The position numbers were made by a program, and so were the translations under genes. Below are positions 10,371-42,900 of a stretch of 44,252 bases of DNA, one piece after another (within the stretch, counting starts at the first letter, position 1; every line of letters starts with the position of its first letter). Origin of the DNA: Pirellulales bacterium (GTDB taxonomy: Bacteria > Planctomycetota > Planctomycetia > Pirellulales > JAICIG01). The notes below the pieces were generated by a model. It did not search any database and was not told the origin of the DNA. It saw nothing but the letters and a program-made list of their open reading frames with translations. The DNA is taken from positions 1 through 44,252 of the forward strand of contig DASVHB010000067.1 in NCBI GenBank assembly GCA_036379195.1, written 5' to 3'.

Positions 10371-10420
10371 GGGGCAAAGCCTAAGCGATGCCCCGGCCGA
10401 TGCAAACCGGGGCATCGGCA
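10371..10420. repeat. REP-like element family C (GGGGCArAGCCTAAGCGATGCCCCGG..) with hairpin
   Basis: The hairpin arms cgatgccccgg (10386-10396) and ccggggcatcg (10407-10417) are perfect, with a 10-nt loop. The first 26 nt match a segment inside NRPS-1 (19216-19241) at 25/26. The core inside NRPS-2 (33516-33541, reverse strand) matches that NRPS-1 segment at 24/26. Confidence 0.8.
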
Positions 10421-10451
10421 AACCTCTGCCTCAGCCACCTGTCGCTTCACA

Positions 10452-10510
10452 CCAACCCGAAGCGTAAGCGAGGACGAGACCCGACTTACCTCGCTTACGC
10501 TTCGGGTTGG
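10452..10510. repeat. REP-like element family B: perfect 22-bp inverted repeat with 15-nt loop
   Basis: ccaacccgaagcgtaagcgagg (10452-10473) and cctcgcttacgcttcgggttgg (10489-10510) are exact reverse complements. The element lies between convergent fadL-like and snoaL-like genes and may act as a bidirectional terminator. A paralogue with the same arm and loop geometry lies inside NRPS-2 at 29840-29898. Confidence 0.85.
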
Positions 10511-10558
10511 TATGGGGCGCGCTGTTCGGCGGCTGCGCGAGTGGGCGCGCAATGCGGG

Positions 10559-16252: not shown

Positions 16253-19200
16253 ATGCCCCCAGACGTTTTGCGCGACTTTGCCAGGCAACTTTTTCCGTCC
16301 GACGTGACCACGCTGCCCGACGTGCTCGCTTGGCGCGCCCGCTGCCAGCCACACCAGCGGGCATTCACCTTTCTGGTCGACGGCGAGGAGCAGGAAGAGC
16401 AATGGACCTACGCTCAGCTAGACCGCCGGGCGCGCGCCATCGCCGAGGTGCTCATCGCAAATGACGCCGCGGGTGAGCGCGCGCTGTTGGTCTACGACGC
16501 GGGGCTGGAGTATATCGCCGCGCTGTTTGGCTGCCTCTATGCCGGCGTGGTGGCCGTGCCGGTCTATCCGCCCGACCCGTTTCGCATGGACCGCACGCTG
16601 CCGCGGCTGCAAGCTATCTTGGCCGACGCCGGGGCGGCCTGGCTGTTGGCGACACGCGAAACGCTCGACTGGGCCGGGCCGCTGTTTGCCAAGGCGCCGG
16701 GGCTGAAATCGTCGTTGGCGACGGACGAATGCCACGCAGCCGAGTGCCACGAAGCCGAATGCGCAGTGCGGAGTGCGGAGTGCGGAACAGAGGCCGACTC
16801 GCTGGCGATTTTGCAGTACACATCGGGTTCGACCGGCGATCCACGCGGCGTGATGATTTCGCATCGCAACCTGATGGCCAACCTCACGCTCATCCATCGG
16901 ATGGTCGATCGCGACGATGCGGTCGCCGTCTCTTGGCTGCCCGCCTATCACGATATGGGCCTGATCGGCGTCACGTTTCAGCCAGTTTTCAGCGGGCGGC
17001 ACGCCGTGCTGCTTTCGCCGGTGGCGTTTATGCAGCGGCCCTATCGTTGGTTGAATGCGATCTCACGATTCCGCGGCACAACGACCGCCGCTCCGAACTT
17101 CGCCTACGATCTGTGCGTTCGCAAGGTGAGCGCGGCGGAACGCGCGACGCTCGATCTGAGCAGCCTGGTGCTGGCGCTCAACGGGGCCGAAGCGGTCCGG
17201 GCCGACACACTGGATCGGTTCAGCGAAGCCTTTGCGCCGTGCGGTTTTCGCCGCGAGGCGTTCTATCCCTGCTATGGACTGGCTGAAGCCACGCTGATGG
17301 TCAGCGGCGGCGCCAAGAACGAGCTTCCAATCGTCAAATGGTTCGACGCCGCCGCGCTGGAGCACAATCGAGCGGAACCGCTTAGCACTGATCTCGCGCC
17401 CGAGGTAGCCCCCGGCCTTGTGCCGGACATGGTAGCCCCCGGCCTTGTGCCGGGCTTGTCTGGAATAACACCCATTACGCCGGCCGCAAGGGCCGGGACT
17501 ACGAGCCCGATCGCTGCATCGGACGCGAGGGCGGGGGCCACCCGGTTGGTTGGCAGTGGTCACGCGGCATGTAGCCAGCGCGTGGTAATCGTCGATCCGC
17601 GGACATTACAGCCATTGCCCGAGTGCCAGGTGGGTGAAATCTGGGTGAGCGGGCCGAGCATCGGCGAAGGCTATTGGAACCGGCCGCGCGAATCGGTCGA
17701 AACCTTCGCCGCGACGTTGCCAAACGGTGACGGGCCGTTTCTGCGCACCGGCGACCTCGGTTTTCTGGACGGTGGCGAGCTGTTCATCACAGGGCGGCTG
17801 AAAGACCTCATTATCCTGCAAGGCCGCAATCATTATCCTCATGATCTTGAGCAAACCGTGGCTGGCTCGCATCCGGCGCTAAAGCTCGACGGCGGCGCGG
17901 CTTTCTCCGTCGATGTTTCCGGGCAAGAGCGGCTGGTCATCGTGCAAGAAGTGATGCGTCCGCGCAAAGTCGATCTGCCAGCGGTTGCCGAGACCATCCG
18001 CGCGCGCATCGCCGAATCGCACGGTGTCGCCGCTTCGGCCATTTGCCTTATTCCCGCCGGTACGCTGCCCAAGACGTCAAGCGGCAAGACACGGCGGAGT
18101 GCTTGCCGCGAGTTCTTTCTGGCGGGTTCGCTGGGCGCGGTCTTTGAGTGGTGCGAAGAAGAGTGGCGGATGGACGGTGAGGAATCAGCAGCAGAGGCCG
18201 TCTCCAAATTGACAGCCCCGCCGAACACGCCGACCGAGTGCCGATTGGCGCAGATTTGGAGCGACGTGCTCGGGCTCGATCCGCCCGTAGGTCAGGCTTT
18301 CCAGCCTGACAGCGTGGGTCTTGGGCAAAGTCAGGCTGGAAAGCCTGACCTACGGCACTGCGACATCCACACCAGCTTTTTTGACGTCGGCGGCCAATCA
18401 TTGCTGGCGTCGCAGTTGGCCGCGCGGATTCAAGCCGAGTTTGGCGTTGAAATGCCGATTCGCGTGCTGTTCGAGTCGCCGACGATTGCTCGGCTGGCCG
18501 CCTGGCTCGATGGCGCCGATCGGCAAATGCCTGCGGCTGATCTGCCGCCCCTGAACCGCGCCGACCGGGCCGCGCCGCTGCCGCTGTCGAGCTTTCAAGA
18601 ACAACTGTGGTTTTTGGAGCAGCTTGAACCGGAGCCACGTTATCTGCTCTCGGCCACGATGCGGCTGCGTGGGCCGCTCGATCGGGCGGTTCTCGAACGA
18701 AGCCTCAGTGCCATCGCCACGCGGCACGAAGCGCTTCGCACCGTGTTTTGTGAGCGCGACGGTCTGCCATTTCAGGTGCTACGCGACGTAGGGTGGGCCG
18801 ACAACGTAGCTCCGACACTCCGTGGCGGAGATCTCGGGTCGCCCTTGGCGACCGCGGTTCTCGTCACGGAGTGCCGGGACTACTTTGATCTCTCTCATGG
18901 CCCTTTGTTGCGCGCTTCGCTGGCTTGCATAGATGCCAACGAGCATTTGCTGACGCTGACCATTCATCACCTCATCTGTGATGGCTGGTCGCTGAGCATC
19001 TTTCTTGAGGAACTTGCCGCGCTGTATCACGCTGAAGTCACTCGGCAGCCGGCGAATCTTCCGCCAGTGCCGCTACACTACGCCGATTTTGCCGTCTGGC
19101 AACGGCGCTGCCTCGCCACCCAGCACGTTCAACGGCAGCTCGACTATTGGAAGCAGCAACTCGCAGACCTGACGCCCTTAGAACTCGCTACAGATTTTTT

Positions 19201-22200
19201 GCCAGCGCGGTGGCCGGGGCAGAGCCTAAGCGATGCCCCGGATGTTGCCAGCAGGGGCATTGCCGATTCCGCAGTTCTGAGAGAGAACAAGCCGACTTCC
19301 TATCGCGGCGCCGAGGAGCGGTTCACGATCGGAGAGGAACTAACCGACGCGCTGGCCAGCCTCGGCCATCAACATGATGCGACGCTTTACATGGTCTTGC
19401 TGGCGGCCTTCCAAAGCCTGCTGGCGCGTTGGACTGGCCAACACGACGTGTGCGTCGGCTCACCGATTTCTTACCGGCCGCGCCGCGAGTTCGAGCGCTC
19501 GATCGGATATTTCGTCAATACGCTGGCGCTGCGCACCGATTTATCGGGCGATCCCAGCTTTCGCGAACTGTTGGCGCGGGTGCGCGAAACCGTGTTGGCC
19601 GCTTTCACGAACGCCGATGCGCCGCTGACCGCCATTGTCGATGCCTTGGCGCCGCAGCGGGCCGAAGGCCGCTCGCCGCTTTTCAACGTGATGTTTGTCT
19701 TTGAAAACCTGCCCTGGCAAGGCGACGACGCCGCGGGCCTCTCGATCGGCGACGTGAAAATCGACCATTCGCGAATTGGCGGCTTTGATGTGGCACTGGT
19801 CGTCGAACAACAGGCAGCCAGCTTGAACGCTTCGGTCATTTACAATGCCGAGCTTTTTGAGCCGGCCACCATCGAGTCATTTTGCAACGCGTTCAAGCTT
19901 TTGTTGGCGGGCGTGGCCGCTCAACCCGGTGCCCCGGTAACTTCGCTGATGCTGGCCGACGAAGCGTCGCACGTCTTCCACCCGCCCGCTGCCCCGCTGC
20001 AAAAATTATCTGCTCCGATCCATGATCTGGTTTCCGAGCAAGCCAACCGCGCGCCCGAGGCCACGGCCATCGTTCATGGCGATCGGCAGATCACGTATCA
20101 AGAGCTTGAGCGGCGCGCGGACCAGTTAGCCCACTACCTGCACGCGCTAGGCGTGACGCGCGACATGCCGGTGTCAATTTTTCTGGATCGCTCGATCGAG
20201 ATGGTGGTGGCCGTGCTGGCGGTGCTTAAGTCGGGCGGGGCCTATGTGCCGCTCGATGCCGCCGAAAACAGCGAACGGTTGACGGCGATGCTCGACAACG
20301 TCGCGGCACGGGCCATCATTACCACCAGCCGCACCGCCGATCGCTTGCCGCATCACCGGGCCGAAGAAATCTTGCTTGACGCCCATGCGGAGTCCATCGC
20401 GCAAGCGCCGCGGCAGCCGCTGGCGGCGGGGATCGGCCCCGATAACCTGGCATACATTATCTACACGTCAGGCTCCACGGGTCGCCCCAAGGGGGTGGAA
20501 GTCACCCACGCGGGGCTGGCCAATCATGCTTGCGCCATGGCGTCGCTGTACGAGCTTGGCCCAAGCGACCGAGTGCTGCAAATTATTTCGCCCGCTTTCG
20601 ATGTGGCCGCCGAGGAGATCTTTCCCACGCTTCTTCGCGGAGGCGCCTTGGTGCTTGGTCCGGCGACGAACGAACTGACCGGTCGGGCAATCCTCGATCA
20701 GTGCCGGCGGAGCCGCGTATCGGTGGCCCACATCCCCCCGCCGCTTTTGCAGCAGTGCTTACTGGAGTGGGAAGCCGCCGATGCGCCGCTGTTCGACCAT
20801 TGGCGGGTGCTGGTGGTGGGCGGCGAGCCACCGCGTACCGAGATGCTCAACCAATGGCTGGTGCTTGCCGCCGGACGCGTCCGCCTGTTGCACGAATATG
20901 GCCTGACCGAAACGACCATCACCAGCCTGGTGTATGAAGTGCCGCGCAGTGTTACGGCGTGGCCCGAAAACCGCCGCCTGCCGATTGGCGCACCCATCGC
21001 CGGGGCCGAGGCTTGGGTGCTCGACGCGCATCGGCGGCCTGTGCCGGTCGGAGCGCCGGGCGAGCTCTACTTGGGCGGCGTGGGACTGGCGCGCGGATAC
21101 TATCGACTCGACGACCAAACAGCCGAGCGGTTTGTACCGCATCCGCTTTCGCAACAGCCCGGTGCGCGGCTTTATCGCACGGGCGACCTCGTGCGTCGCC
21201 GCGCTGATGGCGATCTGGAGTTTTTGGGCCGGATCGACGAACAAATCAAGCTTCGCGGCTGGCGCATCGAGCCGCGGGAAATCGAACGAGCGATCCTTGC
21301 GCATCCCGCGGTGGGCCAGGCGGCCGTCGTCGCCCGCGAAGACGCGCCCGGCGCCAAGCGGCTGGTGGCTTATGTGGTGTCAGCCAACGGCGAAATGCCC
21401 TCGCCGCAAGAGCTACGCCAGTGGCTGCGCGGCAAATTGCCCGAACCGATGGTTCCCTCGGCGGTGGTGCGTCTTGCGCATCTGCCGCTCAACCGGCATC
21501 ATAAGCTCGACGTGGCCGCGTTACCGGCGCCCAGCGCGTGCCCGGCCGAAGCGAACGGCGAGGCCATATCGTTTGCCGCGCCGCGCACCGCCTGCGAACA
21601 GCAACTGGCAACGATCTGGCAAGAGATCTTGAATCTTCCGCGCGTCGGCATTCACGACAACTTCTTCGAGCTGGGCGGAGATTCGATTCTCAGCATTCAA
21701 GTGGTGGCGCGGGCCCGGCAAGCGGGGCTTTCTTTCAATCCGCGCCAGCTCTTTCAACACCAGACCATCGCCGAACTAGCCGCGGCGGAGGGCACCGGTC
21801 CGGCGGTGACCGCCGAGCAGGGCGAAGTGTCGGGCGAAACGCCGCTGACGCCCATTCAGCATTGGTTCTTGGACAGCGATCCGATTGACCCGCACCACTT
21901 CAATCAGGCCGTGATGCTGCAAGTTGACGATCGCCTATCTGCCGACGTGCTGGCGGCGCTCGATCATCTGGCATCGCATCACGACGCCTTACGACTGCGG
22001 TTCGCTCGTGACGAACATGGTTGGCGGCAGTGGCACGCACCGGTCGCGGGAAGCTGGTCGCTGGAACGGTTCGACTTTTCGCAGTTACCCGCCGACGAAC
22101 AGATCGCGGCGCTCGAACGCTCGGCCTCGGCGATGCAGGGCGGCCTGCATCTGGAAAACGGTCCATTGGCACGGGCGGGCTGGTTCGATCTGGGCCCGCG

Positions 22201-23242
22201 CGGGCGGCGGCTGCTGTTGGTGGTGCATCACCTGGCGATCGACGCCGTTTCATGGCGAATGTTGCTCGATGATCTGGCGTCGCTGTGGATGAGACTAAAC
22301 AACGGGGAGTTGCCATCCTTGCCTCCCAAGACCACTTCGTTTCAGCATTGGTCGCATCGCCTGGTTGAATACAGTCAATCGACGGCCATCGCGGCGGAGC
22401 TGCCCTACTGGCGCGCGCTTGCCAACGCCGAAGCCGGCTGCCTGCCACGCGATTTCGCAGGGGACGAAAATCTGCAAGCTTCGCTCGAGATCGTCTCGGT
22501 CGTCCTCGACCAAGCGCGGACCGCGGCGCTCTTGGAACGCGCCAACACACCCTATCGCACCCATGCTCCCGAAATCTTGCTGGCGGCGCTGGCCCAATCG
22601 CTAGCCCAGTTCATCGGCCAAAGCTCGATCTTGATCGATATCGAAGGGCATGGCCGGGCGGCCTTGTTCGACGACGTCGATCTGTCGCGCACCGTCGGCT
22701 GGTTCACGGCGGGCTATCCGGTGTTGTTCGATGCGCCGCTCTACTTGCCGCCCGGCACGCTGTTGCGTCGCACCAAGGAAACTCTGCGTCGGGTGCCCGG
22801 CGAAGGAGTCGGTTATGGCGTGTTGCGATACCTTTCGCCCGACGCCGCGGTGCGCGAATCACTCGCCTCGCTGCCGAGGGCGGAAGTGGCCTTCAATTAC
22901 CTGGGCCGCTTCGACGGAGCGCTGGACGAACGATCGTTACTTGCCCGAGCTGTCGAGCCGTCTGGCCCGCTGCGCAGTCCACGAGCAGAGCGCCGCCACC
23001 TGCTCGAAGTCAACCTATTCGTCAGCGGCGGGCAACTATCGATCGAAATCGGTTTTAGCCGCGCCATTCATCGCCGCGAGACCATCGAGAGATTCGCCGC
23101 CGACTACCACGAGCGGCTGGCGGCGGTCATCGACCATTGCCTCTCGCCGCAGGCCGGTGGTTTTACGCCGTCCGACTTTCCGCTTGCCAAAACCGACGAG
23201 CGAGAACTGGAAAGAATCTCGCAGCTTTTGGGCGATGCCTAG
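16253..23242 (+). CDS. non-ribosomal peptide synthetase NRPS-1: FAAL - T - C - A - T - E (one amino-acid module, lipo-initiation, no release domain)
   Basis: This is a single 2329-aa ORF. FAAL hallmarks are FTFLVDGEE..WTYAQLD, LEYIAALFGCLYAGVVAVPVYPP and YTSGSTGDPRG (16817-16837). The N-terminus is paralogous to that of NRPS-2. Carrier 1 is FFDVGGQS (Ser codon 18398-18400). The C domain has HHLICDG (18965-18985). The A domain has YTSGSTGRPKG (20462-20494), HEYGLTE, YRTGD and KLRGWRIE. Carrier 2 is FFELGGDSI (Ser 21683-21685). The E domain has PLTPIQHWF, HHLAID (22226-22243) and EGHGR..LSRTVGWFT. Domain borders are approximate. Confidence 0.9.
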   Translation: MPPDVLRDFARQLFPSDVTTLPDVLAWRARCQPHQRAFTFLVDGEEQEEQWTYAQLDRRARAIAEVLIANDAAGERALLVYDAGLEYIAALFGCLYAGVVAVPVYPPDPFRMDRTLPRLQAILADAGAAWLLATRETLDWAGPLFAKAPGLKSSLATDECHAAECHEAECAVRSAECGTEADSLAILQYTSGSTGDPRGVMISHRNLMANLTLIHRMVDRDDAVAVSWLPAYHDMGLIGVTFQPVFSGRHAVLLSPVAFMQRPYRWLNAISRFRGTTTAAPNFAYDLCVRKVSAAERATLDLSSLVLALNGAEAVRADTLDRFSEAFAPCGFRREAFYPCYGLAEATLMVSGGAKNELPIVKWFDAAALEHNRAEPLSTDLAPEVAPGLVPDMVAPGLVPGLSGITPITPAARAGTTSPIAASDARAGATRLVGSGHAACSQRVVIVDPRTLQPLPECQVGEIWVSGPSIGEGYWNRPRESVETFAATLPNGDGPFLRTGDLGFLDGGELFITGRLKDLIILQGRNHYPHDLEQTVAGSHPALKLDGGAAFSVDVSGQERLVIVQEVMRPRKVDLPAVAETIRARIAESHGVAASAICLIPAGTLPKTSSGKTRRSACREFFLAGSLGAVFEWCEEEWRMDGEESAAEAVSKLTAPPNTPTECRLAQIWSDVLGLDPPVGQAFQPDSVGLGQSQAGKPDLRHCDIHTSFFDVGGQSLLASQLAARIQAEFGVEMPIRVLFESPTIARLAAWLDGADRQMPAADLPPLNRADRAAPLPLSSFQEQLWFLEQLEPEPRYLLSATMRLRGPLDRAVLERSLSAIATRHEALRTVFCERDGLPFQVLRDVGWADNVAPTLRGGDLGSPLATAVLVTECRDYFDLSHGPLLRASLACIDANEHLLTLTIHHLICDGWSLSIFLEELAALYHAEVTRQPANLPPVPLHYADFAVWQRRCLATQHVQRQLDYWKQQLADLTPLELATDFLPARWPGQSLSDAPDVASRGIADSAVLRENKPTSYRGAEERFTIGEELTDALASLGHQHDATLYMVLLAAFQSLLARWTGQHDVCVGSPISYRPRREFERSIGYFVNTLALRTDLSGDPSFRELLARVRETVLAAFTNADAPLTAIVDALAPQRAEGRSPLFNVMFVFENLPWQGDDAAGLSIGDVKIDHSRIGGFDVALVVEQQAASLNASVIYNAELFEPATIESFCNAFKLLLAGVAAQPGAPVTSLMLADEASHVFHPPAAPLQKLSAPIHDLVSEQANRAPEATAIVHGDRQITYQELERRADQLAHYLHALGVTRDMPVSIFLDRSIEMVVAVLAVLKSGGAYVPLDAAENSERLTAMLDNVAARAIITTSRTADRLPHHRAEEILLDAHAESIAQAPRQPLAAGIGPDNLAYIIYTSGSTGRPKGVEVTHAGLANHACAMASLYELGPSDRVLQIISPAFDVAAEEIFPTLLRGGALVLGPATNELTGRAILDQCRRSRVSVAHIPPPLLQQCLLEWEAADAPLFDHWRVLVVGGEPPRTEMLNQWLVLAAGRVRLLHEYGLTETTITSLVYEVPRSVTAWPENRRLPIGAPIAGAEAWVLDAHRRPVPVGAPGELYLGGVGLARGYYRLDDQTAERFVPHPLSQQPGARLYRTGDLVRRRADGDLEFLGRIDEQIKLRGWRIEPREIERAILAHPAVGQAAVVAREDAPGAKRLVAYVVSANGEMPSPQELRQWLRGKLPEPMVPSAVVRLAHLPLNRHHKLDVAALPAPSACPAEANGEAISFAAPRTACEQQLATIWQEILNLPRVGIHDNFFELGGDSILSIQVVARARQAGLSFNPRQLFQHQTIAELAAAEGTGPAVTAEQGEVSGETPLTPIQHWFLDSDPIDPHHFNQAVMLQVDDRLSADVLAALDHLASHHDALRLRFARDEHGWRQWHAPVAGSWSLERFDFSQLPADEQIAALERSASAMQGGLHLENGPLARAGWFDLGPRGRRLLLVVHHLAIDAVSWRMLLDDLASLWMRLNNGELPSLPPKTTSFQHWSHRLVEYSQSTAIAAELPYWRALANAEAGCLPRDFAGDENLQASLEIVSVVLDQARTAALLERANTPYRTHAPEILLAALAQSLAQFIGQSSILIDIEGHGRAALFDDVDLSRTVGWFTAGYPVLFDAPLYLPPGTLLRRTKETLRRVPGEGVGYGVLRYLSPDAAVRESLASLPRAEVAFNYLGRFDGALDERSLLARAVEPSGPLRSPRAERRHLLEVNLFVSGGQLSIEIGFSRAIHRRETIERFAADYHERLAAVIDHCLSPQAGGFTPSDFPLAKTDERELERISQLLGDA
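16727..16787 (+). repeat. degenerate 15-nt repeats ending in perfect (AGTGCGG)x3, encoding ECHAAECHEAECAVRSAECG inside the NRPS-1 FAAL domain
   Basis: The 15-nt units are gaatgccacgcagcc / gagtgccacgaagcc / gaatgcgcagtgcgg, followed by agtgcgg x3 in total (16765-16785). The paralogous position in NRPS-2 reads LSVSPGDWTPVAV and has no repeat. Confidence 0.8.
17404..17503 (+). repeat. duplicated 23-nt unit (27-nt period) plus a degenerate inverted copy, in frame in the NRPS-1 FAAL domain
   Basis: ggtagcccccggccttgtgccgg occurs at 17404-17426 and again, identical, at 17431-17453. The reverse complement of 17481-17503 (cgtagtcccggcccttgcggccg) is a degenerate third copy. The element encodes EVAPGLVPDMVAPGLVPG...AARAGTT. 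NRPS-2 lacks about 45 aa at this position. Confidence 0.8.
18287..18353 (+). repeat. perfect 24-bp inverted repeat (each arm itself a hairpin), in frame inside carrier domain 1 of NRPS-1
   Basis: gtaggtcaggctttccagcctgac (18287-18310) and gtcaggctggaaagcctgacctac (18330-18353) are exact reverse complements with a 19-nt spacer. Each arm contains gtcaggc-N-gcctgac. The element encodes VGQAFQPDSVGLGQSQAGKPDLRH between VLGLDPP and CDIHTSFFDVGGQS. Confidence 0.9.
18788..18873 (+). repeat. composite element: family A half-site plus nested hairpins, in frame in the NRPS-1 C domain
   Basis: gtagggtgggcc lies at 18788-18799. The outer arms are cactccgtg (18816-18824) and cacggagtg (18865-18873). The inner arms are ggtcgcc (18837-18843) and ggcgacc (18847-18853). 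The element encodes VGWADNVAPTLRGGDLGSPLATAVLVTEC upstream of the FDL..GPLLR motif. Confidence 0.8.
19216..19265 (+). repeat. family C REP-like copy, in frame in the NRPS-1 C domain
   Basis: ggggcagagcctaagcgatgccccgg matches the intergenic copy 10371-10396 at 25/26. It encodes GQSLSDAPDVASRGIA. Confidence 0.8.
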
Positions 23243-23250
23243 AAGCACGC

Positions 23251-23997: not shown

Positions 23998-24165
23998 CGC
24001 CAGCCTCCTCGAAGAAGTTCGATGCCTACGCTCAGTATAACGGGGCCGGCGCGACGGCAGTAGCCGCGACGTGCAACGGATTTTTGGCCGCCTGTTGAAA
24101 CCATCGCTTGTAACGCGGAGGCCGATTTTCTGCACTTTCTTGTAAAAACAGCTTGGCGCGTTAGG

Positions 24166-25905: not shown

Positions 25906-25923
25906 GCCAATCAAGTGCGTTTT

Positions 25924-25958
25924 ACCACGGACCGTACTGACGGCGCGGAGTGGTTTTT
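25924..25958 (+). terminator. weak candidate intrinsic terminator after the coiled-coil gene
   Basis: The outer stem is accac (25924-25928) with gtggt (25950-25954). The inner stem is ccgt (25932-25935) with acgg (25940-25943). A T5 run follows at 25954-25958. The stems are short, so support is low. Confidence 0.25.
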
Positions 25959-25998
25959 GACATTTATCACCATTGGTGGTAAAATTACCACATGGTGA
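25957..25998 (+). promoter_or_regulatory. near-consensus sigma70-type promoter (TTGACA-17-TAAAAT) with nested palindromic operator, overlapping the start codon of the AbiEi-like gene
   Basis: The -35 TTGACA is at 25957-25962, followed by a 17-nt spacer and TAAAAT at 25980-25985. The inner palindrome is gtggtaa (25976-25982) with ttaccac (25985-25991). The outer arms are tcaccat (25967-25973) and atggtga (25992-25998). The ATG at 25992 lies 7 nt after the -10, which implies a leaderless transcript. Confidence 0.55.
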
Positions 25999-27134: not shown

Positions 27135-27931
27135 TAAAACCGTTTGACAACGCGGTGGCCGCAAGCCGTGCCGTACTCATCGAGGCGATGGGAGTCCTTG
27201 GCAGATTGCATTCGCACCTCGTCATCATCGGCGGCTGGGTACCTGAGTTGCAAATACCCGGCAAAGGACACCCCGGTTCGCTCGACGTAGACTTGGCAGT
27301 TGATACTCGATCTTTGCCACCGGGGCCATACTCAACAATACGCCGATGTTTGGTTGATGCGGGATATCAGCAAGGAAACATGCCGAGCGTTTTTTTGCGC
27401 CAGATTCCGGGAACGTCGGGACCGTTTCAAGTCAAACTCGATTTGGTTTGCGCCGAGCCAGCTACCGCAATGGAACCTGAGACCGGGCTGCGCGTGCAGG
27501 ATCTCATGATCCATCCGCTTCGCGGGATCGGAATCGCGCTTGATTCGTGCGACGAAGTCCGCATTGATGGCGAGCGGCCCGATGGCGCCTCTGACGCCGT
27601 CGTGGCGCGCATCGCAACCTTAGAAGCATTCATTTGCATGAAAGCGTTCGCGATGGCCGAACGTCGAAAACCCAAAGACGCGTATGACGTTTACTTCTGT
27701 CTGCGACACCGCAACCTCGATCAGCTTTCCACCGCGATCAACTTGATCAGCAGCCAAAGCATCGTACGCGAAGCGATTGACGTGTTGGCAGATAAGTTCC
27801 GCACAATAAACCACGCGGGCCCCATCGACGCCGCGACCGTTGCGCAGGAGCACGGTGATGATTACGAGCAATCGCGCCGCGGTGCGTTCGAACTCATGCA
27901 ACTTTTGCTCGAGCGCATCAAGAACGTTTAA
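27131..27931 (+). CDS. nucleotidyltransferase, AbiEii/AbiGii-toxin-like (DUF1814-type) family
   Basis: 266 aa. The NTase signature is IIGGWVPEL..HPGSLDVDLAVD (GG..x..S-x-D-x-D). A later acidic site is KLDLVCAE. The family-typical motif KPKDAYDVYFCL is present. The GTG start overlaps the upstream stop (gtga, 27131-27134). Confidence 0.5.
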   Translation: MIKPFDNAVAASRAVLIEAMGVLGRLHSHLVIIGGWVPELQIPGKGHPGSLDVDLAVDTRSLPPGPYSTIRRCLVDAGYQQGNMPSVFLRQIPGTSGPFQVKLDLVCAEPATAMEPETGLRVQDLMIHPLRGIGIALDSCDEVRIDGERPDGASDAVVARIATLEAFICMKAFAMAERRKPKDAYDVYFCLRHRNLDQLSTAINLISSQSIVREAIDVLADKFRTINHAGPIDAATVAQEHGDDYEQSRRGAFELMQLLLERIKNV

Positions 27932-36900: not shown

Positions 36901-39900
36901 CAGCAGCGCGACGATCAGCTCGATCGAACGCTCCAACAGCAGGCCGACGCGCGTCTCGGCACCAACGCCCAACGATCGCAGGTAATGCGCGAGCTGGTTT
37001 GCCCGGCGGTTCAATTCGCCGTAGGTCAGCGACTGATTGCCAAAGAGCAGGGCGATGGCTTCGGGGCGCCGCGCGGCCCGCTCGGCAAATAGCTCATGCG
37101 CGCACTGCTCGCGCGGGTAATCGCAGGCGGTTTTATTCCAATCGATCAGCATTTGCCGGCTTTGGTCGGCGGTGAGCAGCGGCAGGCGAGCGATCGACGT
37201 TGTTGGGTCATCGGCGATCGCCTCCAGCATCGTCTGAAAATGTCCGGCCCAGCGGATGACGGTTTCGCGATCCAAAAGGTCGCTGCTGTACTCCCAACTG
37301 GCTTGCAATCCGTCCATGGTTTCGCGCAGCGAAAGCGTTAAATCGACCTTTGCTGCGCCGGTGGTGATCTCCAGCGGGCGAATGCTCATGCCCGGCTCAT
37401 CGAACGCCGGCCATGGTGTGTTTTGCAACGCGAACATCACCTGAAACAGCGGCGTACGCTGAGTGTGTCGCTCGGGCTGAAGATGTTTGACCAGGTATTC
37501 GACCGGTAGTTCCTGGTGGGCGAAGGCGGCGAGAGTGGTTTCTTTGACACGCCGCAGCAGCGCTTCAAAAGTCAGGCCCGTATTCGCGGTTTCACCAACC
37601 GGGGTTTCCGTACCGACTGCATGGTCGCGGAGATCGATAGGCAGGACGAGCGTATTGACGAACAGTCCGATCAGGCTCTCCAGCTCGCGGCGCAAACGCC
37701 CGGCGACGGGTGTTCCCAGACAAAAACGATCCTGGCCGCTCAATCGTCCCAACAGCGTCTCGAACGCCGCGAGCAACGTCATATAGAGCGTCGCATCGTG
37801 TTTGCGGCTCAGTTGTTCGAGACGGTCGACCAGGCGGCGCGGGATGACGGTGGTCCATTGGCCACCCTGCCCGCTGGGTAAGGGCGGTCGCGGACGGTCT
37901 GTCGGAAGCTCCAGCCATTGCGGCACGCCATCGAGCGCCTTCGTCCAGAAATCGAGATTTTTCTGCCGCGCTTCGCTCGCACCGGCGCCGCGTTGCCAGA
38001 CGGCATAATCGGCGTACTGCACGGTCAACGCGGGCGCCGGCAGGTCGCGGCCCGCGGCGTGCGCCTTGTATCCGTCGAGCAACTCGCGCAGCAGCAGACC
38101 GAGCGACCAGCCATCGGCCACCAGGTGATGCAGCACCAGCACAAAGACATGTCGCTCGTCGGCGAGCCGCACCAACTGCGCGCGAGCCACCGGTGCGGCG
38201 CCCAGATCGAACCGCTGGCGTGCGGCGGCCTGTGCCAGCCGTTCGACCTCGTCGCTTTGCTCCGGCGGCGCTAAATGAGCAAGATCAACGATCGGCAGAG
38301 GCAACTCCACCGCGTCGGCGATGGTGTGCACAGGCCGCCCATCGCGCTGGAAAAACCGCGTGCGCAGCGATTCGTGCCGGGCCACAAGCCGCTTCAGGCT
38401 GGCGCGCAAAGCATCGATGTTGAGCAAGCCGGTGAGCTCGACTGCCAGCGGAATGTGGTAGCAGGGACTGTCAGGCTCAAGTTGTTCGAGAAAGAACAAC
38501 CGCTCTTGCGCGAACGACAGGGGCATTTCGTCCTGTCGATCGGCGATCGGAATGGGCCATGCCCAGGTCGGGTCATTGGTGCGCGAATCGCAATCGAGGG
38601 CGGGCGAGTCCGAGTCGATCGCGCGGGCCAGACGCGCAATGGTTGGTTCCTCGAACAATCTGCGCAGCGGTATCTCGGCCCGGAAGCGTTCGCGCAGCCG
38701 GGTCATAAGCTGCATCGCCAGCAGCGAATGTCCGCCCAGATCGAAAAAGTTATCGTCGATGCCCACCCGCTCGACGCCCAGCAGCTCGGCCCATAGATCG
38801 GCCAACGCCGCTTCGGTGCTACTGCGTGGGGCGACATAAGCGTGCAGGGCGACTGCGGCGCCGGTTGGCTGGGGCAGTGCGCGGCGATCGAGCTTGCCAT
38901 GAGGCGTCAATGGCAGCGCGTCGAGCGTCACGAAGGCGGCCGGCAGCATATATTCGGGCAACCGTGCCTTTAGCCAATCGCGCAGCTCGGCGTGGCCATT
39001 CTGTTCGCCGTGTCGTGGCACGATGTAAGCCACCAGGCGTTTGCCGCCCGGGCCGTTCTCGCGGGCCACGACCGCCGCCTCGCGCACATGCGGATGCCGC
39101 GCGAGATGCGTTTCAATCTCACCCAGCTCGATGCGGAAGCCGCGAATCTTGACCTGTTGATCGAGCCGCCCCAGATACTCCAACTCGCCGTTGGCGCGCC
39201 AACGCACGCGGTCGCCAGATCGGTAGAGCCGATGGTCGCCATTCACATCGCGCTCGCGCGTGCTTTCGCGGAGCGAAAGCCGACTTTGCTCAAAAGGGCT
39301 GGCGATGAATCGCTCGGCGGTCAGATCGGGCCGGTTGAGATAACCTCGTGCCAGACCCATCCCGCCGAGGTAGAGCTCGCCCGGCACGCCGATAGGCACC
39401 GGTTGTCTTTGTCCGTCGAGCACGAAAACCCGGCAGCCGGGCAGCGGCCGGCCAATGGGGCTCGCCGCCGGACGCAGCAGGTCTGCGCAGGTCAGCGGCC
39501 GCCAGGTGGAAACGATCGCGGTCTCGGTGATGCCATACATGTTTACCAGCAACGGCTTGGCATCGCCGTGCCGATCGAACCAGCCTGACAACGCGGCAAC
39601 GTCGAGCATTTCGCCCGCCAAGATCACCAGCCGCAAGGCCAGTCGCTCGGCGCCGGCGCCCGCTCGTTCATCGGACTGCATGAGCTGGTTGAACGCGGCG
39701 GGCGTCTGATTGAGCACGGTCACTTGCTCATCGATCAGCAATTGATGAAAGCTGTCGGCCGAGCGGGCGATGGCGCGGGGCACGACGACCAGCCGGCCGC
39801 CAAAGGCCAGCGCGCCCCACAGCTCCCACACCGAAAAGTCGAAGGCGTAGGAATGAAACAACGTCCAGATATCGCCGGGGCCAAAGTCGTAGAGCGGCCC

Positions 39901-42900
39901 GGCCGATTGCATCACGGCGACGACCGCCGCGTGACTGACCATGACGCCCTTGGGCTTGCCTGTCGACCCCGATGTGTATATGACATACGCCAGGCGCTCG
40001 GCATCTGTGATCGGCGGAAGGTTTTCGCAGCCTTGCAACGCGAGTTGATCGTCTGCTTCGTCCAAGCAAACGATCGGTCCAGAGAAATCCCCCAGCCGTT
40101 CGGCGAGTGGTCGCTGCGTGAGCACAAGGGTCGGGCTGGCGTCGGCAAGCATCTCTTGCAGTCGCTCGGCAGGCAAAGCCGGGTCGAGCGGCACATAGGC
40201 CGCGCCTGATTTCAGGGCGCCGAGAATTGCCACTACGGTATCGAGGGAGCGCTCGAGGCAAATGGCGACGAGGACGTCAGATTTTGGATTTTCGATTTTA
40301 GATTTTCGATTTCGACGAAGATGCCACGCGAGCCGGTTCGCTCTTTTATTTAGCTCCCGGTACGAGAGCTTCCGGCCTTCGAACACCACGGCAATGGCGT
40401 CGGGCGTTTGGGCGGCCTGCCGCTCAAACAGCTCGTGCAGGCAGCACGGCATTGTCGCCTTTCGCTCCGCGCAAGTAGCGCCGCTTTCGCGGAGCGAAAG
40501 GCGACTTTGGGCGACGTCCGCTACTTGCGCACGGCAATTTACAGGCCATCGGGTGCTCGACCAGTCCATCAATAGTCTCTGCCGCTCACTCTCTGGCATC
40601 ACGGGCAAACGCGAAACACATTGGGCCGGCTTGGCAACAGCGGCGGCCAGCAACGCCGACCAGTTGGCGATGATTCGGTCGATGGTATCGGCATCGAACA
40701 AATCGGTGCTGTATTCCAGTGTGCCCGCCAGGCGTCCACCGCGGTCGGCGAGGGCGAAGGTGAGATCGTACTTCGCCGCACCAGTGTGGATTTCGTCGAA
40801 CGCAACGCCGGGCACCGACGGCAGCGGCGTGTTCTGCACCACCAAAGCCACTTGGAACAATGGTGAGCGGCTGGCGTCGCGTGTGGCCGCGAATTCCTCG
40901 ACCAGCCGCTCGAACGGCACTTCCTGCTGATCGAACGCGGTCAGCGCAGTTTGCTTGGCGCGCTGCAAGAGCTGCTCGAAGCTCGGATCGTCTGACAGGT
41001 CGGCCCGCAGCGGCAGCATATTCACAAAGAAGCCGACCAGCGGCTCGAATTCGGGCCGAGCGCGATTGGCCGCGGCGGCGCCGAGGCAGAAATCGGTCTG
41101 CCCGGTATAGCGGTGGAGCAGGGCCTGCAGCGACGCCAGCAAAACCACAAACGGAGTGGCGCCGCTGTCGCGGGCAAGCGCCTCGATCTGCGAAGTCAAT
41201 TCGGTCGACAGTTCGATGGGGTGCGTCGCCCCGCGATAAGTCTGCGCAGCGGGCCGCGGCCGATCGGTCGGCAATTCCAGCGGCGGCGGATCGTCTACCA
41301 GTTGCCTCCGCCAATAGACCAATTGTGCTTCCGTCTGGGCTATCGCCTCCGCCGAGCGTTGCCACGTCACATAGTCGAGATATTGGAGGGGCAGTGGCGG
41401 CAGGGGCGGAGGAAGGTCGAGCAACTGGGCTTGATACACCTGCCAAAGCTCGCTCAGCAGCACGCCCATCGACCAGCCGTCGGCGATGATGTGGTGCATC
41501 GCTAACAACAGACGGTGGTCATCGTCGGCTAGTTGCAGCCAGATCACCCGCCATAGAGGGCCTTGCGCCAGATCGAACATGCGACGCGCTTCCGCATCGA
41601 TGTGCTCGCCAGCGATCCGTTGCCGATCTTCCGGCGGCGAATCGCGCAAGTCGATTTCCGCCAGCGTAGGCAATTGCCACGGGTGAATCATCTGAACTGG
41701 GCCGTTTTCGGTGCGGGCGAAGGTGGTGCGCAGCGATTGGTGCCGGTCGGTGATGGCCAGCAGGCTGCGCCACATGGCGTCGCCGTCGAGCGGTCCGGCG
41801 ACTCGAACGGCCACACTCAAGTGGTTGAGAGAGCTTTCCGGCGCCAGCTCGTCCATAAAATACAAACGCTGCTGCGCGAACGAGAGCGGCGCCTGGCTTG
41901 GGCAGTTCGACGTGGCAAGCGGAGTTGTCGCGCGGCTGCATTGTTCGCGCGGCGCCGCATCGATCTCGGCGGCCAGCGACGCGATCGTTGGCGAACGAAA
42001 TAGCGCCGCCAGCGGTAAATCGATCTGCCACTGGCGGCGAACACGGGCGACGAGCTGCGTGGCCAGCAACGATTGGCCGCCATGCTCAAAAAAGTTGTCG
42101 TGAATGCCCCGGGTATCGTTTTGCAGCACTTCGCGCCACAGTTCCAACAGCCGCGCTTCCGTCTCGGTGCGCGGCGCAGCAGGTTGGCCCGCGCCGTCCA
42201 ATGCCGAGTGATGAGTCTCAGCCCGCCACTGGTAGAGCGGCTCAAGCTGCTCCTCAAGAAACAACTGGCGACAGGCGCGGCGCTGCACTTTGTGGCTGGT
42301 GGTGCGCGGCAACGAGCCGGAGCGGATCAGCGCAATGGCAAACGGCGGCACGTCGTGCTCCGACAATACCGCCTGGCGAATCGCGGCGAACACCTCTTCG
42401 AGGTTGGTATTCTTGGGCGTGCGTTTCAGCTCTTGCACGACCACCAGACGCTCTTGGCCTTCCGCGTCGATCGAAAAGGCGGCACCCGCGTCGGACTTCA
42501 GAAGCGCGTGCGCCCGGCCGACGGTGTCTTCGATGTCCTGGGCATAAAGATTACGCCCGCAAATGATGATCTGATCTTTCAATCGCCCGGTGACGAACAG
42601 TTCGCCCGCGTGCAAGAAGCCCAAATCGCCGGTGCGCAGGTAGGGGCCGCGCCCATCGGGTAAGTATGCCCGAAACGCCTGCTCGGTTTCTTGCGGTCGG
42701 TTCCAATAGCCGGAGGCTACGCCGGGACTGCGGACCCAAATCTCGCCGATCTGCCGGGCAGACCGCTCGCTGTGCGAATCGGGATCGACGATCAGCACCT
42801 CAGTGCGGGCCAAACACCGGCCGGAGCTGACCAGCGCGCGTGTCGGTCGGCCGTTGATGCCCACCACCGCCCGGTGTCGCGAGAGGGCGCTGATCTCGAA

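What the first reader, a model, noticed from the sequence alone, without database searches (positions are those of the whole stretch)
16727..40505. At least 15 short repeat elements are translated in frame inside the two NRPS ORFs without breaking them
NRPS-1 carries five elements, at 16727, 17404, 18287, 18788 and 19216. NRPS-2 carries at least ten, at 29840, 31940 (two units), 32743, 33516, 33554, 36761, 39262, 40280 and 40454. There is possibly another at about 29011-29083, encoding ..DATESVPHRS.. All of them keep the 7-kb and 16-kb frames open. Where the two paralogous FAAL-T units can be compared within the window, the NRPS-1 elements appear as extra segments of roughly 7, 45 and 24 aa that are absent from NRPS-2. 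By eye the elements fall in linker or loop positions: between core motifs A1 and A2, after A2, before A8 (YRTGD), in the C1-A1 linker, at the T-E junction, and upstream of the C-domain FDL motif. This looks like repeated colonisation of megasynthase genes by REP-like DNA, filtered by selection for frame and fold.
Basis: seen in the sequence. Interest (0 to 1): 0.65.

Follow-up and report, generated by a model that had tools for sequence, protein, structure and literature searches.

The report
Palindromic repeats translated inside NRPS genes
Two giant peptide-synthetase genes of a soil planctomycete carry at least ten short, normally intergenic, mobile-type DNA repeats that are read through in frame as floppy surface loops, a denser case of the "selfish DNA inside protein-coding genes" already known from Rickettsia and other bacteria.

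Summary
The observation largely holds. NRPS-1 (16253-23242, +) and NRPS-2 (27928-43959, -) are intact synthetases that contain short repeats of at least seven families. These are GTAG-tagged REP/REPIN hairpins (F, D, D2, E), other hairpins (A, B, C) and heptanucleotide arrays.

Ten or eleven of the 15 listed elements are robust. They are multi-copy in independent soil metagenomes, and all but family A and the heptamer arrays also have intergenic copies in the window or in related genomes. They are extra segments relative to orthologues or 40 homologues. Four or five are weak: 17404 in part, 31940, 32743, 36761 and 29011.

Fifteen more distant orthologues of NRPS-1 lack the inserts. The closest relative shares three and part of a fourth, so the insertions are old but lineage-specific. 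NRPS-1 is under purifying selection (omega about 0.16), and strain variants differ by in-frame indels.

AlphaFold models place the NRPS-1 inserts in disordered loops, one of them in the carrier-domain alpha1-alpha2 loop. No other gene in the window carries such an element.

This is a new, unusually dense member of a known kind. One point is unexplained: the arms of one intragenic REPIN are conserved as nucleic acid, not as peptide.

The parts
16253..23242 (+). NRPS-1, 2329 aa: FAAL-T-C-A-T-E(C-like). Host gene of five elements.
   Evidence: Orthologues were found. Against the closest orthologue omega is 0.16.
27928..43959 (-). NRPS-2, 5343 aa: FAAL-T-C-A-T-C-A-T-C-A-T-E-C-T-TE. Host gene of about ten elements.
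   Evidence: No close orthologue was found.
16727..16790 (+). A 15-nt tandem repeat (CGAATGCCACGAAGC x2.5) followed by heptamers (TGCGGAG x3.9). It encodes ..ECHAAECHEAECAVRSAECG.. in the variable loop before the A3 P-loop of the FAAL.
   Evidence: Tandem repeats. Depth is 175 against a baseline of about 17, and contigs break here. Strain X10 is 15 nt shorter. The heptamer part is shared with L001. Model pLDDT is about 56.
17404..17505 (+). Family E: two GTAG-tagged units (GGTAGCCCCCGGCCTTGTGCCGG, 27 nt apart) plus a partner arm ..CCGGCCGCAAGGGCCGGGACTAC. It lies within a +45 aa insert (aa 379-423) in the FAAL.
   Evidence: An intergenic E unit sits at L001:13938. Residues 382-425 have pLDDT <50. 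Depth is only about 2x and fold z is -1.9.
18285..18355 (+). Family F REPIN: two inverted GTAG-tagged REPs (CCGTAGGTCAGGCTTTCCAGCCTGAC) with a 19-nt spacer. It encodes VGQAFQPDSVGLGQSQAGKPDLR in the alpha1-alpha2 loop of the first carrier (T) domain, upstream of the FFDVGGQS motif.
   Evidence: I23; z -9.05; depth 400 against 17; phylum-wide family; residues 677-701 have pLDDT <50.
18784..18887 (+). A family D unit (CGACGTAGGGTGGGCCGA) followed by the family D2 hairpin (GTAGCTCCGACACTCCGTG...CACGGAGTGCCGGGACTAC), in a variable loop of the C domain upstream of the FDL motif.
   Evidence: z -3.4; depth 117-386. An intergenic D2 copy lies at L123:4977-5050. Model residues 830-874 have pLDDT <50.
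19205..19263 (+). Family B element (GGTGGCCGGGGCAGAGCCTAAGCGATGCCCCGG; the right arm has decayed). It forms a +27-29 aa insert (aa 982-1010) in the loop between the two lobes of the C domain.
   Evidence: D18, I14, I16; depth 855 against 17, many different flanks; residues 986-1015 have pLDDT <50.
29011..29083 (-). Imperfect palindrome (TCCGTGG...CCACGGA) in the C-T linker, encoding ..NPWHSVEGGSTSRVSAQDATESVPHRS... It is a possible old element.
   Evidence: Fold z is -3.7, with 0 of 200 shuffles folding as well. It is a 12-aa insert relative to 8 homologues. There is no multi-copy depth.
29827..29901 (-). Family C REPIN (ACCCGAAGCGCAAGCGAGGC...GCCTCGCTTGCGCGTCGGGTTGG). It forms a 26-aa insert (aa 4687-4712, ..TRSASEAEMRRASLARRVGAGG..) in the last C domain, at the position homologous to the B insert in NRPS-1.
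   Evidence: I7, D19; z -5.8; depth 76 against 15.
31940..32010 (-). Two D-like units (GTAGGATGGGCATCGCCCACC and GGTGAGCAGCGCCCACCCGAC). They form an 18-aa insert just after the PIQxWF motif at the start of the E domain.
   Evidence: Strain X10 is 21 nt shorter overall, with its gaps concentrated here. There is no depth spike and fold z is -1.96.
32737..32762 (-). Degenerate A-like half-element (CGGCTTTCGCTTAGAGAAAGC, encoding RLSLRES) between A6 and A7 of module 3.
   Evidence: small inserts ESTHL and VGVGE. Evidence is weak: depth is 23 against 15.
33512..33552 (-). Family B half-element (GGTGGCTGGGGCAGAGCCTTGGCGATGCCCCGG), encoding ARWLGQSLGDAP between A2 and A3 of module 3.
   Evidence: I15, I16; depth 2639 against 15; tens of contigs with unlike flanks end at 33513-33553.
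33553..33589 (-). Heptamer array (GGATTTT-like on the + strand), encoding RKSEIQSLES and adjoining the B half-element.
   Evidence: Joints show other metagenome loci where a B element adjoins AAAATCC-type arrays.
36761..36790 (-). Degenerate heptamer-like stretch, encoding SESRIQNTKS between A2 and A3 of module 2.
   Evidence: Evidence is weak: there is no depth spike and it is not an insert in the occupancy scan.
39255..39285 (-). Family A half-element (GTCGGCTTTCGCTCCGCGAAAGC, encoding SRLSLRES). It lies in a 14-aa insert between A6 and A7 (YRSGD) of module 1.
   Evidence: depth 63 against 15; joints link it to other A copies.
40280..40312 (-). Heptamer array (GATTTTC x4.7 on the + strand), encoding KSKIENPKS. 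It is a 6-aa insert between A1 and A2 of module 1.
   Evidence: depth 1077 against 15, loose ends at 40280.
40454..40505 (-). Family A REPIN (GTCGCCTTTCGCTCCGCG...CGCGGAGCGAAAGGCGAC), encoding RLSLRESGATCAERKAT. It lies in a 28-aa insert in the C-A linker of module 1.
   Evidence: z -7.8; depth 1077/307; loose ends at 40454 and 40505.
10358..10519 (.). Intergenic reference copies: a family B REPIN (10358-10440) and a family C REPIN (10443-10519), between the convergent FadL-like and SnoaL-like genes.
   Evidence: z -3.7 and -11.0; depth 778 against about 15.
1224..1266 (.). Intergenic family D REP hairpin (GTAGGGTGGG...CCCACCCTAC), starting in the stop codon of the aminotransferase gene and lying between convergent genes.
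   Evidence: depth 922; loose ends at 1232 and 1263.
1..42 (.). Heptamer array (ATGAGTG x6) at the very start of the contig.

Best explanation
Short non-autonomous palindromic repeats and heptanucleotide arrays are dispersed, mainly intergenic DNA in Planctomycetota genomes. Over time they have inserted repeatedly into these two non-ribosomal peptide synthetase genes. The palindromes are REP/REPIN-type: four families carry the GTAG tag and three do not.

Only some insertions survive. They must add a multiple of three bases, fall in a frame of the element that has no stop codon, and land in a surface loop or inter-domain linker. Survivors are transcribed and translated as part of the synthetase and form disordered loops of 6-45 residues. 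Most then decay slowly into half-elements with degenerate arms.

They are best seen as tolerated passengers, not as parts of the enzyme. Very long multi-domain proteins with many permissive loops accumulate them.

Shown here: the identity of the repeat families, their multi-copy and mostly intergenic distribution, their lineage-specific presence, their loop positions in models, and purifying selection on the host gene.

Inferred: that an HUH/Y1 (RAYT-like) transposase acting on single-stranded hairpins moves them, that the inserts are really translated, and that they are neutral or nearly so.
For: REPEAT FAMILIES AND COPIES. Family F occurs in at least 119 Planctomycetota loci spanning several orders. 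Only 6 of 122 clusters lie in long open frames, and 4 of those are in real genes (BatA/VWA, DUF1549/1553, TPR, AcrB). Three of the four are read in the same VGQAFQPD..GKPDLR frame; the TPR-gene copy shows only the right-arm reading GQAGKPDL.

MULTI-COPY DEPTH. Contigs from independent soil metagenomes give 4-175x depth spikes, contig breaks and unlike flanks at the elements. Elsewhere in the window this happens only at the intergenic copies.

SPECIFICITY. All seven hairpin families are absent from 1.08 Mb of NRPS loci from other organisms.

INSERT STATUS. Fifteen orthologues lack the NRPS-1 inserts. Eight to nine of the 13 query-specific inserts of at least 10 aa found in unbiased scans against 40 homologues coincide with elements. 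Other orthologues have independent REP-like inserts at the same loops.

FRAME AND SELECTION. Strain indels are in frame. Omega is 0.16, and every domain has pN/pS of 0.15-0.28.

STRUCTURE. The NRPS-1 inserts are loops with pLDDT <50.

ENRICHMENT. All 9 strongly multi-copy intragenic elements lie in the NRPS genes and none in 19.6 kb of other coding sequence (binomial P 0.004).

PRECEDENT. In-frame REP insertion is described in PMC3733652.
Against: - No RAYT or other transposase gene is in the window. One candidate REP-flanked gene elsewhere was not a transposase.
- Families A, B and C lack the GTAG/CGTC tag.
- Family A was never seen in an annotated intergenic context. Its multi-copy status rests on metagenome depth alone.
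- Depth is summed over all organisms in a soil sample, so it is not copy number within one genome.
- NRPS-2 has no close orthologue, so its inserts are polarised only against paralogous modules and homologues of 40-55% identity.
- Three to four inserts of at least 10 aa are not repeat-derived, so ordinary indels also occur.
- The arms of the F element are far better conserved than a neutral passenger should be.
Confidence: 0.85

Rival explanations
1. The intragenic elements, or some of them, are kept because they do something as nucleic acid. Stable mRNA hairpins at loops and domain borders could pause ribosomes and help co-translational folding of a megasynthase. Alternatively the DNA hairpins could serve as binding or processing sites for a REP-associated protein. 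The coded peptide would then be incidental.
For: The F REPIN is orthologous between the window and the closest relative, because both copies have a 19-nt spacer. That length occurs in only 1 of 37 other F pairs, whose spacers range from 1 to 101 nt.

Its arms are 26/26 and 24/26 identical, and 18 of 18 third codon positions match, against a gene-wide figure of 0.55. The spacer is about 50% identical, and gene-wide dS is about 1.06.

Both arm changes are C-to-T opposite G. They keep G.U pairing on the mRNA strand yet change the amino acid.

The right arm of D2 is also 100% identical. Element codons show lower pS (0.41) and higher pN/pS (0.58) than the domains.
Against: - Most elements are decayed halves without hairpin potential.
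- Family B at the orthologous site is not conserved: 0.57-0.71 identity.
- Fifteen orthologues work without any of these inserts.
- The sites are loops, not only domain borders.
- Arm conservation could come from gene conversion by other copies.
- The sample is two arms and two substitutions.
Confidence: 0.1
2. The segments are not insertions of mobile repeats. They are ordinary fast-evolving, low-complexity linkers or ancestral sequence that only resemble repeats by chance or through local duplication.
For: Several inserts of at least 10 aa are not repeat-derived: 37617..37573, 30903..30874, 30513..30481, and a 21-nt tandem duplication at 29329-29370.

The weak elements (36761, 32743, 31940, 29011) show no multi-copy signal.

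A native C-domain motif (DLTLSLRET, 34110-34126) shares 17 nt with family A without being an insert.
Against: The robust elements match intergenic copies at 76-100% identity over 18-75 nt. They are multi-copy with unlike flanks in independent metagenomes. They belong to families found in other genomes, mostly outside genes. They are absent from orthologues.
Confidence: 0.03
3. The picture is an artefact: either chimeric metagenome assembly through repeats, or decaying pseudogenes that merely remain open by chance.
For: Short-read contigs do break at the strongest repeats. The window is itself a whole metagenome contig that starts in a repeat.
Against: Contigs from different studies span the elements with their flanks and no mismatches. 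X7 covers 18963-20784 across B. X4 covers 18282-19116 across D/D2. X1 covers 35928-40513 and 27928-32773 across eight elements.

Two independent assemblies of a different species carry F, B and part of D2 at the same codons.

Open frames of 7 and 16 kb in 63% GC DNA, omega of 0.16 and conserved core motifs all argue against decay.
Confidence: 0.02

Closest known systems
Rickettsia palindromic elements (RPE-1 and relatives; Ogata et al. 2000, 2002, as cited in PMC3733652 and PMC5896051)
   Same: These are short palindromic repeats found both between genes and in frame inside functional protein-coding genes. They are translated as extra surface segments and are compatible with fold and function.
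   Different: The sequence families and the phylum are unrelated. The host here is a free-living soil planctomycete with a large GC-rich genome, not a reduced intracellular genome. RPE-1 is about 100-150 bp and usually occurs once per gene. Here there are 5 and about 10 elements of seven families per gene.
GTAG-tagged REPs, including intragenic ones in Opitutus terrae and other bacteria (Di Nocera et al. 2013, PMC3733652)
   Same: Families F, D, D2 and E are 20-30 nt stem-loops with a terminal GTAG. They are often paired in inverted orientation, are mostly intergenic between convergent or co-directional genes, and occasionally lie inside ORFs, where dimers encode 20-30 aa. That paper already reports GTAG REPs in Planctomycetes (R. 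baltica) and many intragenic copies in the PVC bacterium O. terrae.
   Different: That survey found at most two insertion sites per ORF and stressed DNA-repair genes. Here a synthetase carries many. Families A, B and C lack the GTAG/CGTC tag.
REPINs and their RAYT transposases (Bertels & Rainey 2011, PMC3116915; 10.1101/2021.07.10.451892)
   Same: Two inverted REPs with a spacer form a long hairpin (F, A, C and the intergenic B). The populations are vertically inherited and persistent, which fits a family shared across orders of one phylum.
   Different: No RAYT was found or linked here. The described REPINs are essentially extragenic.
Bacterial MITEs that create in-frame fusions (for example Coxiella QMITEs, PMC5896051; enterobacterial RU elements, PMC2759123)
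   Same: These are small non-autonomous repeats that sometimes sit in frame in ORFs and add residues.
   Different: MITEs are longer and have terminal inverted repeats derived from IS elements, usually with target-site duplications. None of that was seen here.
Short tandemly repeated heptanucleotide sequences (STRR) of heterocystous cyanobacteria (own knowledge, not checked here)
   Same: Both are dispersed arrays of 7-nt units.
   Different: The unit sequences and the phylum differ. STRR are described as intergenic. Here three arrays are read through in coding sequence.

Membership tests
REP / GTAG-tagged REP superfamily | A short (about 20-40 nt) imperfect palindrome able to form a stem-loop. 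| tested here: met
   Units of F, D, D2, E, A, B and C form stems of 7-11 bp. The paired forms fold with z of -3.4 to -11.
REP / GTAG-tagged REP superfamily | A conserved GTAG (or CGTC) tetranucleotide at one end. Tested for families F, D, D2 and E. | tested here: met
   The units read GTAGGTCAGGC.., GTAGGGTGGGC.., GTAGCTCCGAC.. and GTAGCCCCCGG...
REP / GTAG-tagged REP superfamily | A conserved GTAG (or CGTC) tetranucleotide at one end. Tested for families A, B and C. | tested here: not met
   A is GTCGCCTTTCGC.., B is GGTGGCCGGGGCAG.. and C is CACCAACCCGAAGCG... None has such a tag. These are palindromic repeats of other, unnamed families.
REP / GTAG-tagged REP superfamily | Many dispersed copies, mostly intergenic, typically after genes and between convergent or co-directional genes. 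| tested here: met
   F occurs in at least 119 loci, and 116 of 122 clusters lie outside long open frames. B, C and D lie between convergent genes in the window. E and D2 are intergenic in relatives. Per-genome copy numbers were not obtained.
REPIN | Two REPs in inverted orientation separated by a short spacer, forming one long hairpin. | tested here: met
   F at 18285-18355, A at 40454-40505, C at 29827-29901 and 10443-10519, and B at 10358-10440. Thirty-seven F pairs elsewhere have spacers of 1-101 nt.
REPIN | A cognate single-copy RAYT (Y1/HUH transposase) gene flanked by the same REPs. | not tested
   No such gene is in the window. One REP-flanked gene checked in L065 is not a transposase. 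No whole genome was available to search.
Rickettsia palindromic elements (RPE) | Sequence membership in the RPE families of Rickettsia. | not tested
   No RPE sequences were compared. The host phylum and base composition differ, so membership is not claimed. Only the behaviour is the same.
Rickettsia palindromic elements (RPE) | In-frame presence inside otherwise conserved, selected genes, at positions compatible with the fold. | tested here: met
MITE | Terminal inverted repeats around a non-coding core of about 70-300 bp, with target-site duplications. | tested here: inconclusive
   The elements are 50-105 nt and palindromic throughout. No direct duplication is visible at the borders of F, A or C. 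The empty sites are too diverged to define the borders exactly.
Non-ribosomal peptide synthetase | Condensation, adenylation, carrier and thioesterase domains in modular order, with intact core motifs. | tested here: met
   Pfam hits have E-values from 1e-16 down to 1e-250. The motifs YTSGSTG, YRTGD, GRxDxQVKxRG, FFxxGGxS, HHxxxDG and GWSFGG are present.

The most novel reading that the evidence does not exclude
Some intragenic REPINs are not mere passengers but are maintained by selection on the nucleic-acid hairpin itself. The F element in the carrier domain kept both 26-nt arms almost unchanged across a divergence of about one synonymous substitution per site. Over the same period its spacer randomised and its peptide changed. 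This would mean a coding-sequence hairpin with a function, such as translational pausing in a megasynthase, mRNA processing, or a protected docking site for a REP-binding protein. Alternatively it could reflect continuous homogenisation of intragenic copies by the REPIN population.
Probability: 0.15. Interest if true: 0.7.

Novelty: new member of a known kind. Interest (0 to 1): 0.4.

Why it matters
[quoted passage not shown] It also shows the highest per-gene load that I could find described: 5 and about 10 elements, against one or two sites per ORF in PMC3733652.

In practical terms, the surviving inserts form a natural map of positions where NRPS domains tolerate 6-45 extra residues:
- the C-A linker;
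- the A1-A2, A2-A3 and A6-A7 loops;
- the alpha1-alpha2 loop of a carrier domain;
- two C-domain loops;
- the start of the E domain.
This is useful for tagging and engineering.

There are also consequences for annotation. Such repeats break short-read assemblies inside biosynthetic genes, and they inflate domain lengths and lower HMM scores.

Finally, one REP sequence is shared across several orders of a phylum. That is a useful entry point for studying how long REPINs persist.

Tried and rejected
- The C-terminal 1384 aa and module 1 of NRPS-2 found no orthologue above 41% and 55% identity in the protein collection and in JGI metagenomes. The NRPS-2 inserts could therefore not be polarised against close relatives.
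- Synteny did not help. NRPS-1 orthologues stand alone in other genomes.
- Expression could not be assessed. The five runs returned as possible RNA are of unknown kind and give only 2-5x fragmentary contigs, so nothing is claimed about transcription.
- A search for a REP-flanked transposase was limited to one candidate (L065), which was negative.
- The PSLRESS stretch at about 31050 and the DLTLSLRET stretches at 34110 and 37319 look like family A in translation. I rejected them as elements because they align without a gap to paralogous domains and are not multi-copy.

Full report
WHAT THE WINDOW IS

The window is 44.3 kb at 63% GC and appears to be a whole metagenome contig: the collection's longest contig for its NRPS-1 protein is 44,252 bp. 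The best relatives of its proteins are Pirellulales MAGs. Near-identical sequence occurs in at least 20 soil-metagenome runs from 11 studies.

The gene content, by Pfam, runs as follows:
- an aminotransferase;
- a hopanoid-type block (amine oxidase, two SQS_PSY genes, LytB);
- a hybrid histidine kinase, a FadL-like porin, SnoaL, a P450, a C25 peptidase and a ComM-like ATPase;
- NRPS-1 (16253-23242, +);
- three poorly annotated ORFs and an AbiEi/AbiEii pair;
- NRPS-2 (27928-43959, -).

NRPS-1 is FAAL-T-C-A-T-E. NRPS-2 is FAAL-T-(C-A-T)x3-E-C-T-TE.

ARE THE ELEMENTS THERE?

Reading the DNA and its translation at every listed coordinate shows recognisable short repeats. I grouped them as follows:
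- F: CCGTAGGTCAGGCTTTCCAGCCTGAC
- D: GTAGGGTGGGC..
- D2: GTAGCTCCGACACTCCGTG..
- E: GGTAGCCCCCGGCCTTGTGCCGG
- A: GTCGCCTTTCGCTCCGCGAAAGC
- B: GGTGGCCGGGGCAGAGCCTAAGCGATGCCCCGG
- C: ACCAACCCGAAGCGTAAGCGAGG
- heptamer arrays: TGCGGAG, GAAAATC and ATGAGTG.

B, C and D have intergenic copies in the window itself. B and C sit at 10358-10519, between the convergent FadL and SnoaL genes. D sits at 1224-1266, starting in a stop codon between convergent genes.

The paired forms fold far better than shuffled sequence:

| Element | Fold z-score |
|---|---|
| F | -9.0 |
| A | -7.8 |
| C | -5.8 |
| D2 | -3.4 |
| 29005-29090 | -3.7 |
| intergenic C | -11.0 |

The half-elements do not fold significantly better than shuffles.

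ARE THEY MORE THAN CHANCE? AN UNBIASED SCAN

I laid the contigs of independent soil metagenomes on the entire window at 88% likeness or better. Baseline depth is flat, about 15 in run X1. Strong spikes occur only at the places below. At each of them the contigs break, and many contigs run on into flanks that disagree with one another.

| Position | Element | X1 bin depth (baseline about 15) |
|---|---|---|
| 1232-1263 (intergenic) | D | 922 |
| 10358-10519 (intergenic) | B + C | 778 |
| 16719-16951 | tandem + heptamers | 175 |
| 18281-18353 | F | 400 |
| 18797-18887 | D/D2 | 117-386 |
| 19208-19241 | B | 855 |
| 29838-29901 | C | 76 |
| 33513-33590 | B half + heptamers | 2639 |
| 39255-39285 | A half | 63 |
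| 40280-40312 and 40454-40505 | heptamers and A | 1077 |

Moderate spikes elsewhere coincide with conserved protein motifs and have concordant flanks, so they come from homologous genes rather than from repeats.

No spike was seen at 29011-29083, 31940-32010, 32743 or 36761, and only about 2x at 17404.

All nine strongly multi-copy intragenic elements therefore lie in the two NRPS genes (23.0 kb). None lies in the other 19.6 kb of coding sequence (binomial P 0.004).

One caveat applies: depth is summed over all organisms in a sample.

REPEAT FAMILIES ELSEWHERE

Nearly all are Planctomycetota MAGs labelled Pirellulales, Lacipirellulaceae, Gemmataceae, Isosphaeraceae, Planctomycetaceae or Tepidisphaeraceae.

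Of 122 F clusters, only 6 lie in frames open for at least 100 aa on both sides. Pfam shows that 4 of these are real genes with an in-frame F insert: BatA/VWA, DUF1549/DUF1553, a TPR protein and an AcrB-type transporter. Three of them are translated as VGQAFQPD...GKPDLR, exactly as in NRPS-1; the TPR-gene copy shows only the right-arm reading GQAGKPDL.

The fixed reading follows from the sequence. Only one sense frame of the F element is free of stop codons.

B, C, D2 and heptamer arrays also turn up, often as inverted pairs, in these Planctomycetota loci. E and D2 have intergenic copies in relatives, at L001:13938 and L123:4977-5050. None of the seven hairpin families occurs in 1.08 Mb of NRPS loci from other organisms.

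ARE THEY INSERTIONS?

NRPS-1 has 16 orthologues with the same architecture. The 15 at 51-57% identity lack the segments at aa 379-423, 677-701 and 985-1015. At aa 158-180 and 846-877 they have unrelated, variable sequence.

The closest orthologue (73% identity, locus L001) compares as follows at the DNA level:
- It shares the F insert codon for codon.
- It shares the B insert, and its copy is the more complete REPIN.
- It shares the heptamer part of site 1.
- It has only the right arm of D2.
- It has a short remnant at the E site.

The insertions therefore predate that split but are specific to this lineage.

Other orthologues carry their own REP-like inserts at the same permissive loops:
- P0006 has a 49-aa REPIN-like insert in the same C-domain loop.
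- P0005 has the same EDGLPRPSR-type element between A2 and A3.
- P0016 has a D-type insert (..GGQCPPY..) before A7.

NRPS-2 has no close orthologue. I therefore scanned each protein for segments occupied in fewer than 20% of 40 homologues (8 for the T-TE piece). For module 1 the only such segments are the three that contain elements: 28, 6 and 14 aa. Over both proteins, 8-9 of the 13 inserts of at least 10 aa coincide with elements. The remainder are ordinary indels, one of them a 21-nt tandem duplication.

IS THE HOST GENE ALIVE?

Between the window and L001, NRPS-1 shows 74% nucleotide identity, dS about 1.06 and omega 0.16. Every domain has pN/pS of 0.15-0.28, including the carrier domain that holds the F element.

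A roughly 98% identical strain (run X10) differs by -15 nt in the tandem array at 16743 and by -21 nt around 31935-31976. Both indels are in frame.

Contigs from different studies span most elements together with their flanks. Assembly artefact and pseudogene decay are therefore unlikely.

WHERE DO THE INSERTS SIT?

AlphaFold models were built with orthologue alignments. FAAL-T has mean pLDDT 78.6, and the C domain has 69.7 with pTM 0.74. The domains are confidently folded.

In both models the segments with pLDDT <50 fall at the chain termini, at the inserts, and at two or three other short stretches (192-194, 642-653 and about 1074-1088). The insert segments are:
- residues 382-425;
- residues 677-701, between carrier helix 1 and the FFDVGGQS turn, about 14 residues before the phosphopantetheine serine;
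- residues 830-874;
- residues 986-1015.

Site 1 has pLDDT of about 56.

For NRPS-2, alignment to its own modules places the inserts in the C-A linker, between A1 and A2, between A2 and A3, between A6 and A7, just after the E-domain PIQxWF motif, and in the same inter-lobe C-domain loop as the B insert of NRPS-1. The one error is that YRTGD is motif A7, not A8.

WHAT IT IS AND HOW IT WORKS

The simplest account is that REP/REPIN-type elements and heptamer arrays, normally extragenic, insert now and then into coding DNA. Copies survive only when length, frame and position are tolerable. Very long modular proteins offer many tolerable positions, so they accumulate copies, which then decay.

The mover is presumed to be a Y1/HUH transposase of the RAYT kind, because four families carry the GTAG tag that marks such REPs (PMC3733652, PMC3116915). 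That link was not tested.

This phenomenon is already known:
- RPEs in Rickettsia;
- intragenic GTAG/CGTC REPs in Opitutus terrae, Thauera and others, where dimers encode 20-30 aa and at most two sites per ORF were reported (PMC3733652);
- in-frame MITEs in Coxiella (PMC5896051).

GTAG REPs were also already reported in Planctomycetes (PMC3733652). I therefore file this as a new and unusually dense member of a known kind.

AN UNEXPLAINED POINT

The F element is orthologous in the window and L001. Both copies have a 19-nt spacer, a length seen in only 1 of 37 other F pairs, whose spacers range from 1 to 101 nt.

Its arms are 26/26 and 24/26 identical, and 18 of 18 third codon positions match, against 0.55 gene-wide. 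Only 0.75% of 9-codon windows reach that value. The spacer is about half identical.

Both arm substitutions are C-to-T opposite G. They preserve G.U pairing on the mRNA strand but change the amino acid.

The element thus evolves as a nucleic-acid hairpin rather than as a peptide. Selection on the hairpin, gene conversion from other copies, or independent targeted insertion could each explain this, and I could not separate them. Family B at its orthologous site is not conserved in this way.

LIMITS

- Translation and transcription were not shown; the candidate RNA runs are of unknown kind.
- Per-genome copy numbers are unknown.
- Family A has no annotated intergenic copy.
- Four or five of the listed elements are only plausible relics.

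Noticed in passing
REP families are usually described as specific to a species or genus, so a phylum-wide family is notable.
   Followed up: partly
window 18285-18355 vs L001:6740-6815: The arms of the orthologous intragenic REPIN are nearly identical (50/52 nt) although gene-wide dS is about 1. The spacer has randomised, and both arm changes keep G.U pairing on the mRNA strand.
   Followed up: partly
window 25992-27931: An AbiEi/AbiEii-like toxin-antitoxin pair lies in a lower-GC stretch (0.58). A roughly 98% identical strain in run X10 lacks 26741-27799 and has 25903-26161 replaced by 63 other letters, so the module is polymorphic in the population.
   Followed up: partly
window 1286-5585: There is a hopanoid-type gene block: an amine-oxidase-like desaturase, two squalene/phytoene-synthase-family genes and LytB/IspH.
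   Followed up: no
window 27928-30100 (NRPS-2 aa about 4460-5343): The last module of NRPS-2 is C-T-TE with no adenylation domain of its own.
   Followed up: no
window 34110-34126 and 37319-37335: The native C-domain sequence DLTLSLRET is encoded by DNA that shares 17 nt, and the reading frame, with repeat family A (RLSLRES). It aligns without a gap to paralogous domains and is not multi-copy, so it is probably coincidence.
   Followed up: partly
L123:12275-12420 (P0006); P0005 near NRPS-1 aa 1391; P0016 near aa 1635; P0080 several sites: Other Pirellulales orthologues of NRPS-1 carry their own palindromic inserts at the same loops. Examples are ..EDGLPRPSR..RRDGLGSPSS.. and ..VGIAHH..GGQCPPY.., and they arose independently of those in the window.
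   Followed up: partly
window 37573-37617, 30874-30903, 30481-30513, 29329-29370: NRPS-2 has further lineage-specific inserts of 10-15 aa that are not recognisable dispersed repeats. The last is a 21-nt tandem duplication.
   Followed up: partly
window 1-42: The contig starts with (ATGAGTG)x6, a third kind of heptamer array. Assembly probably stopped in it.
   Followed up: no
L001, L122, L123: Orthologues of NRPS-1 (FAAL-T-C-A-T-E, about 2200 aa) are stand-alone genes in different neighbourhoods in other Pirellulales. Its proximity to NRPS-2 in this window is therefore not conserved.
   Followed up: partly
window 11098-11127: Metagenome contigs repeatedly break or join to B-element copies at the SnoaL/P450 gene junction. 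This hints at another repeat or a strain rearrangement there.
   Followed up: no
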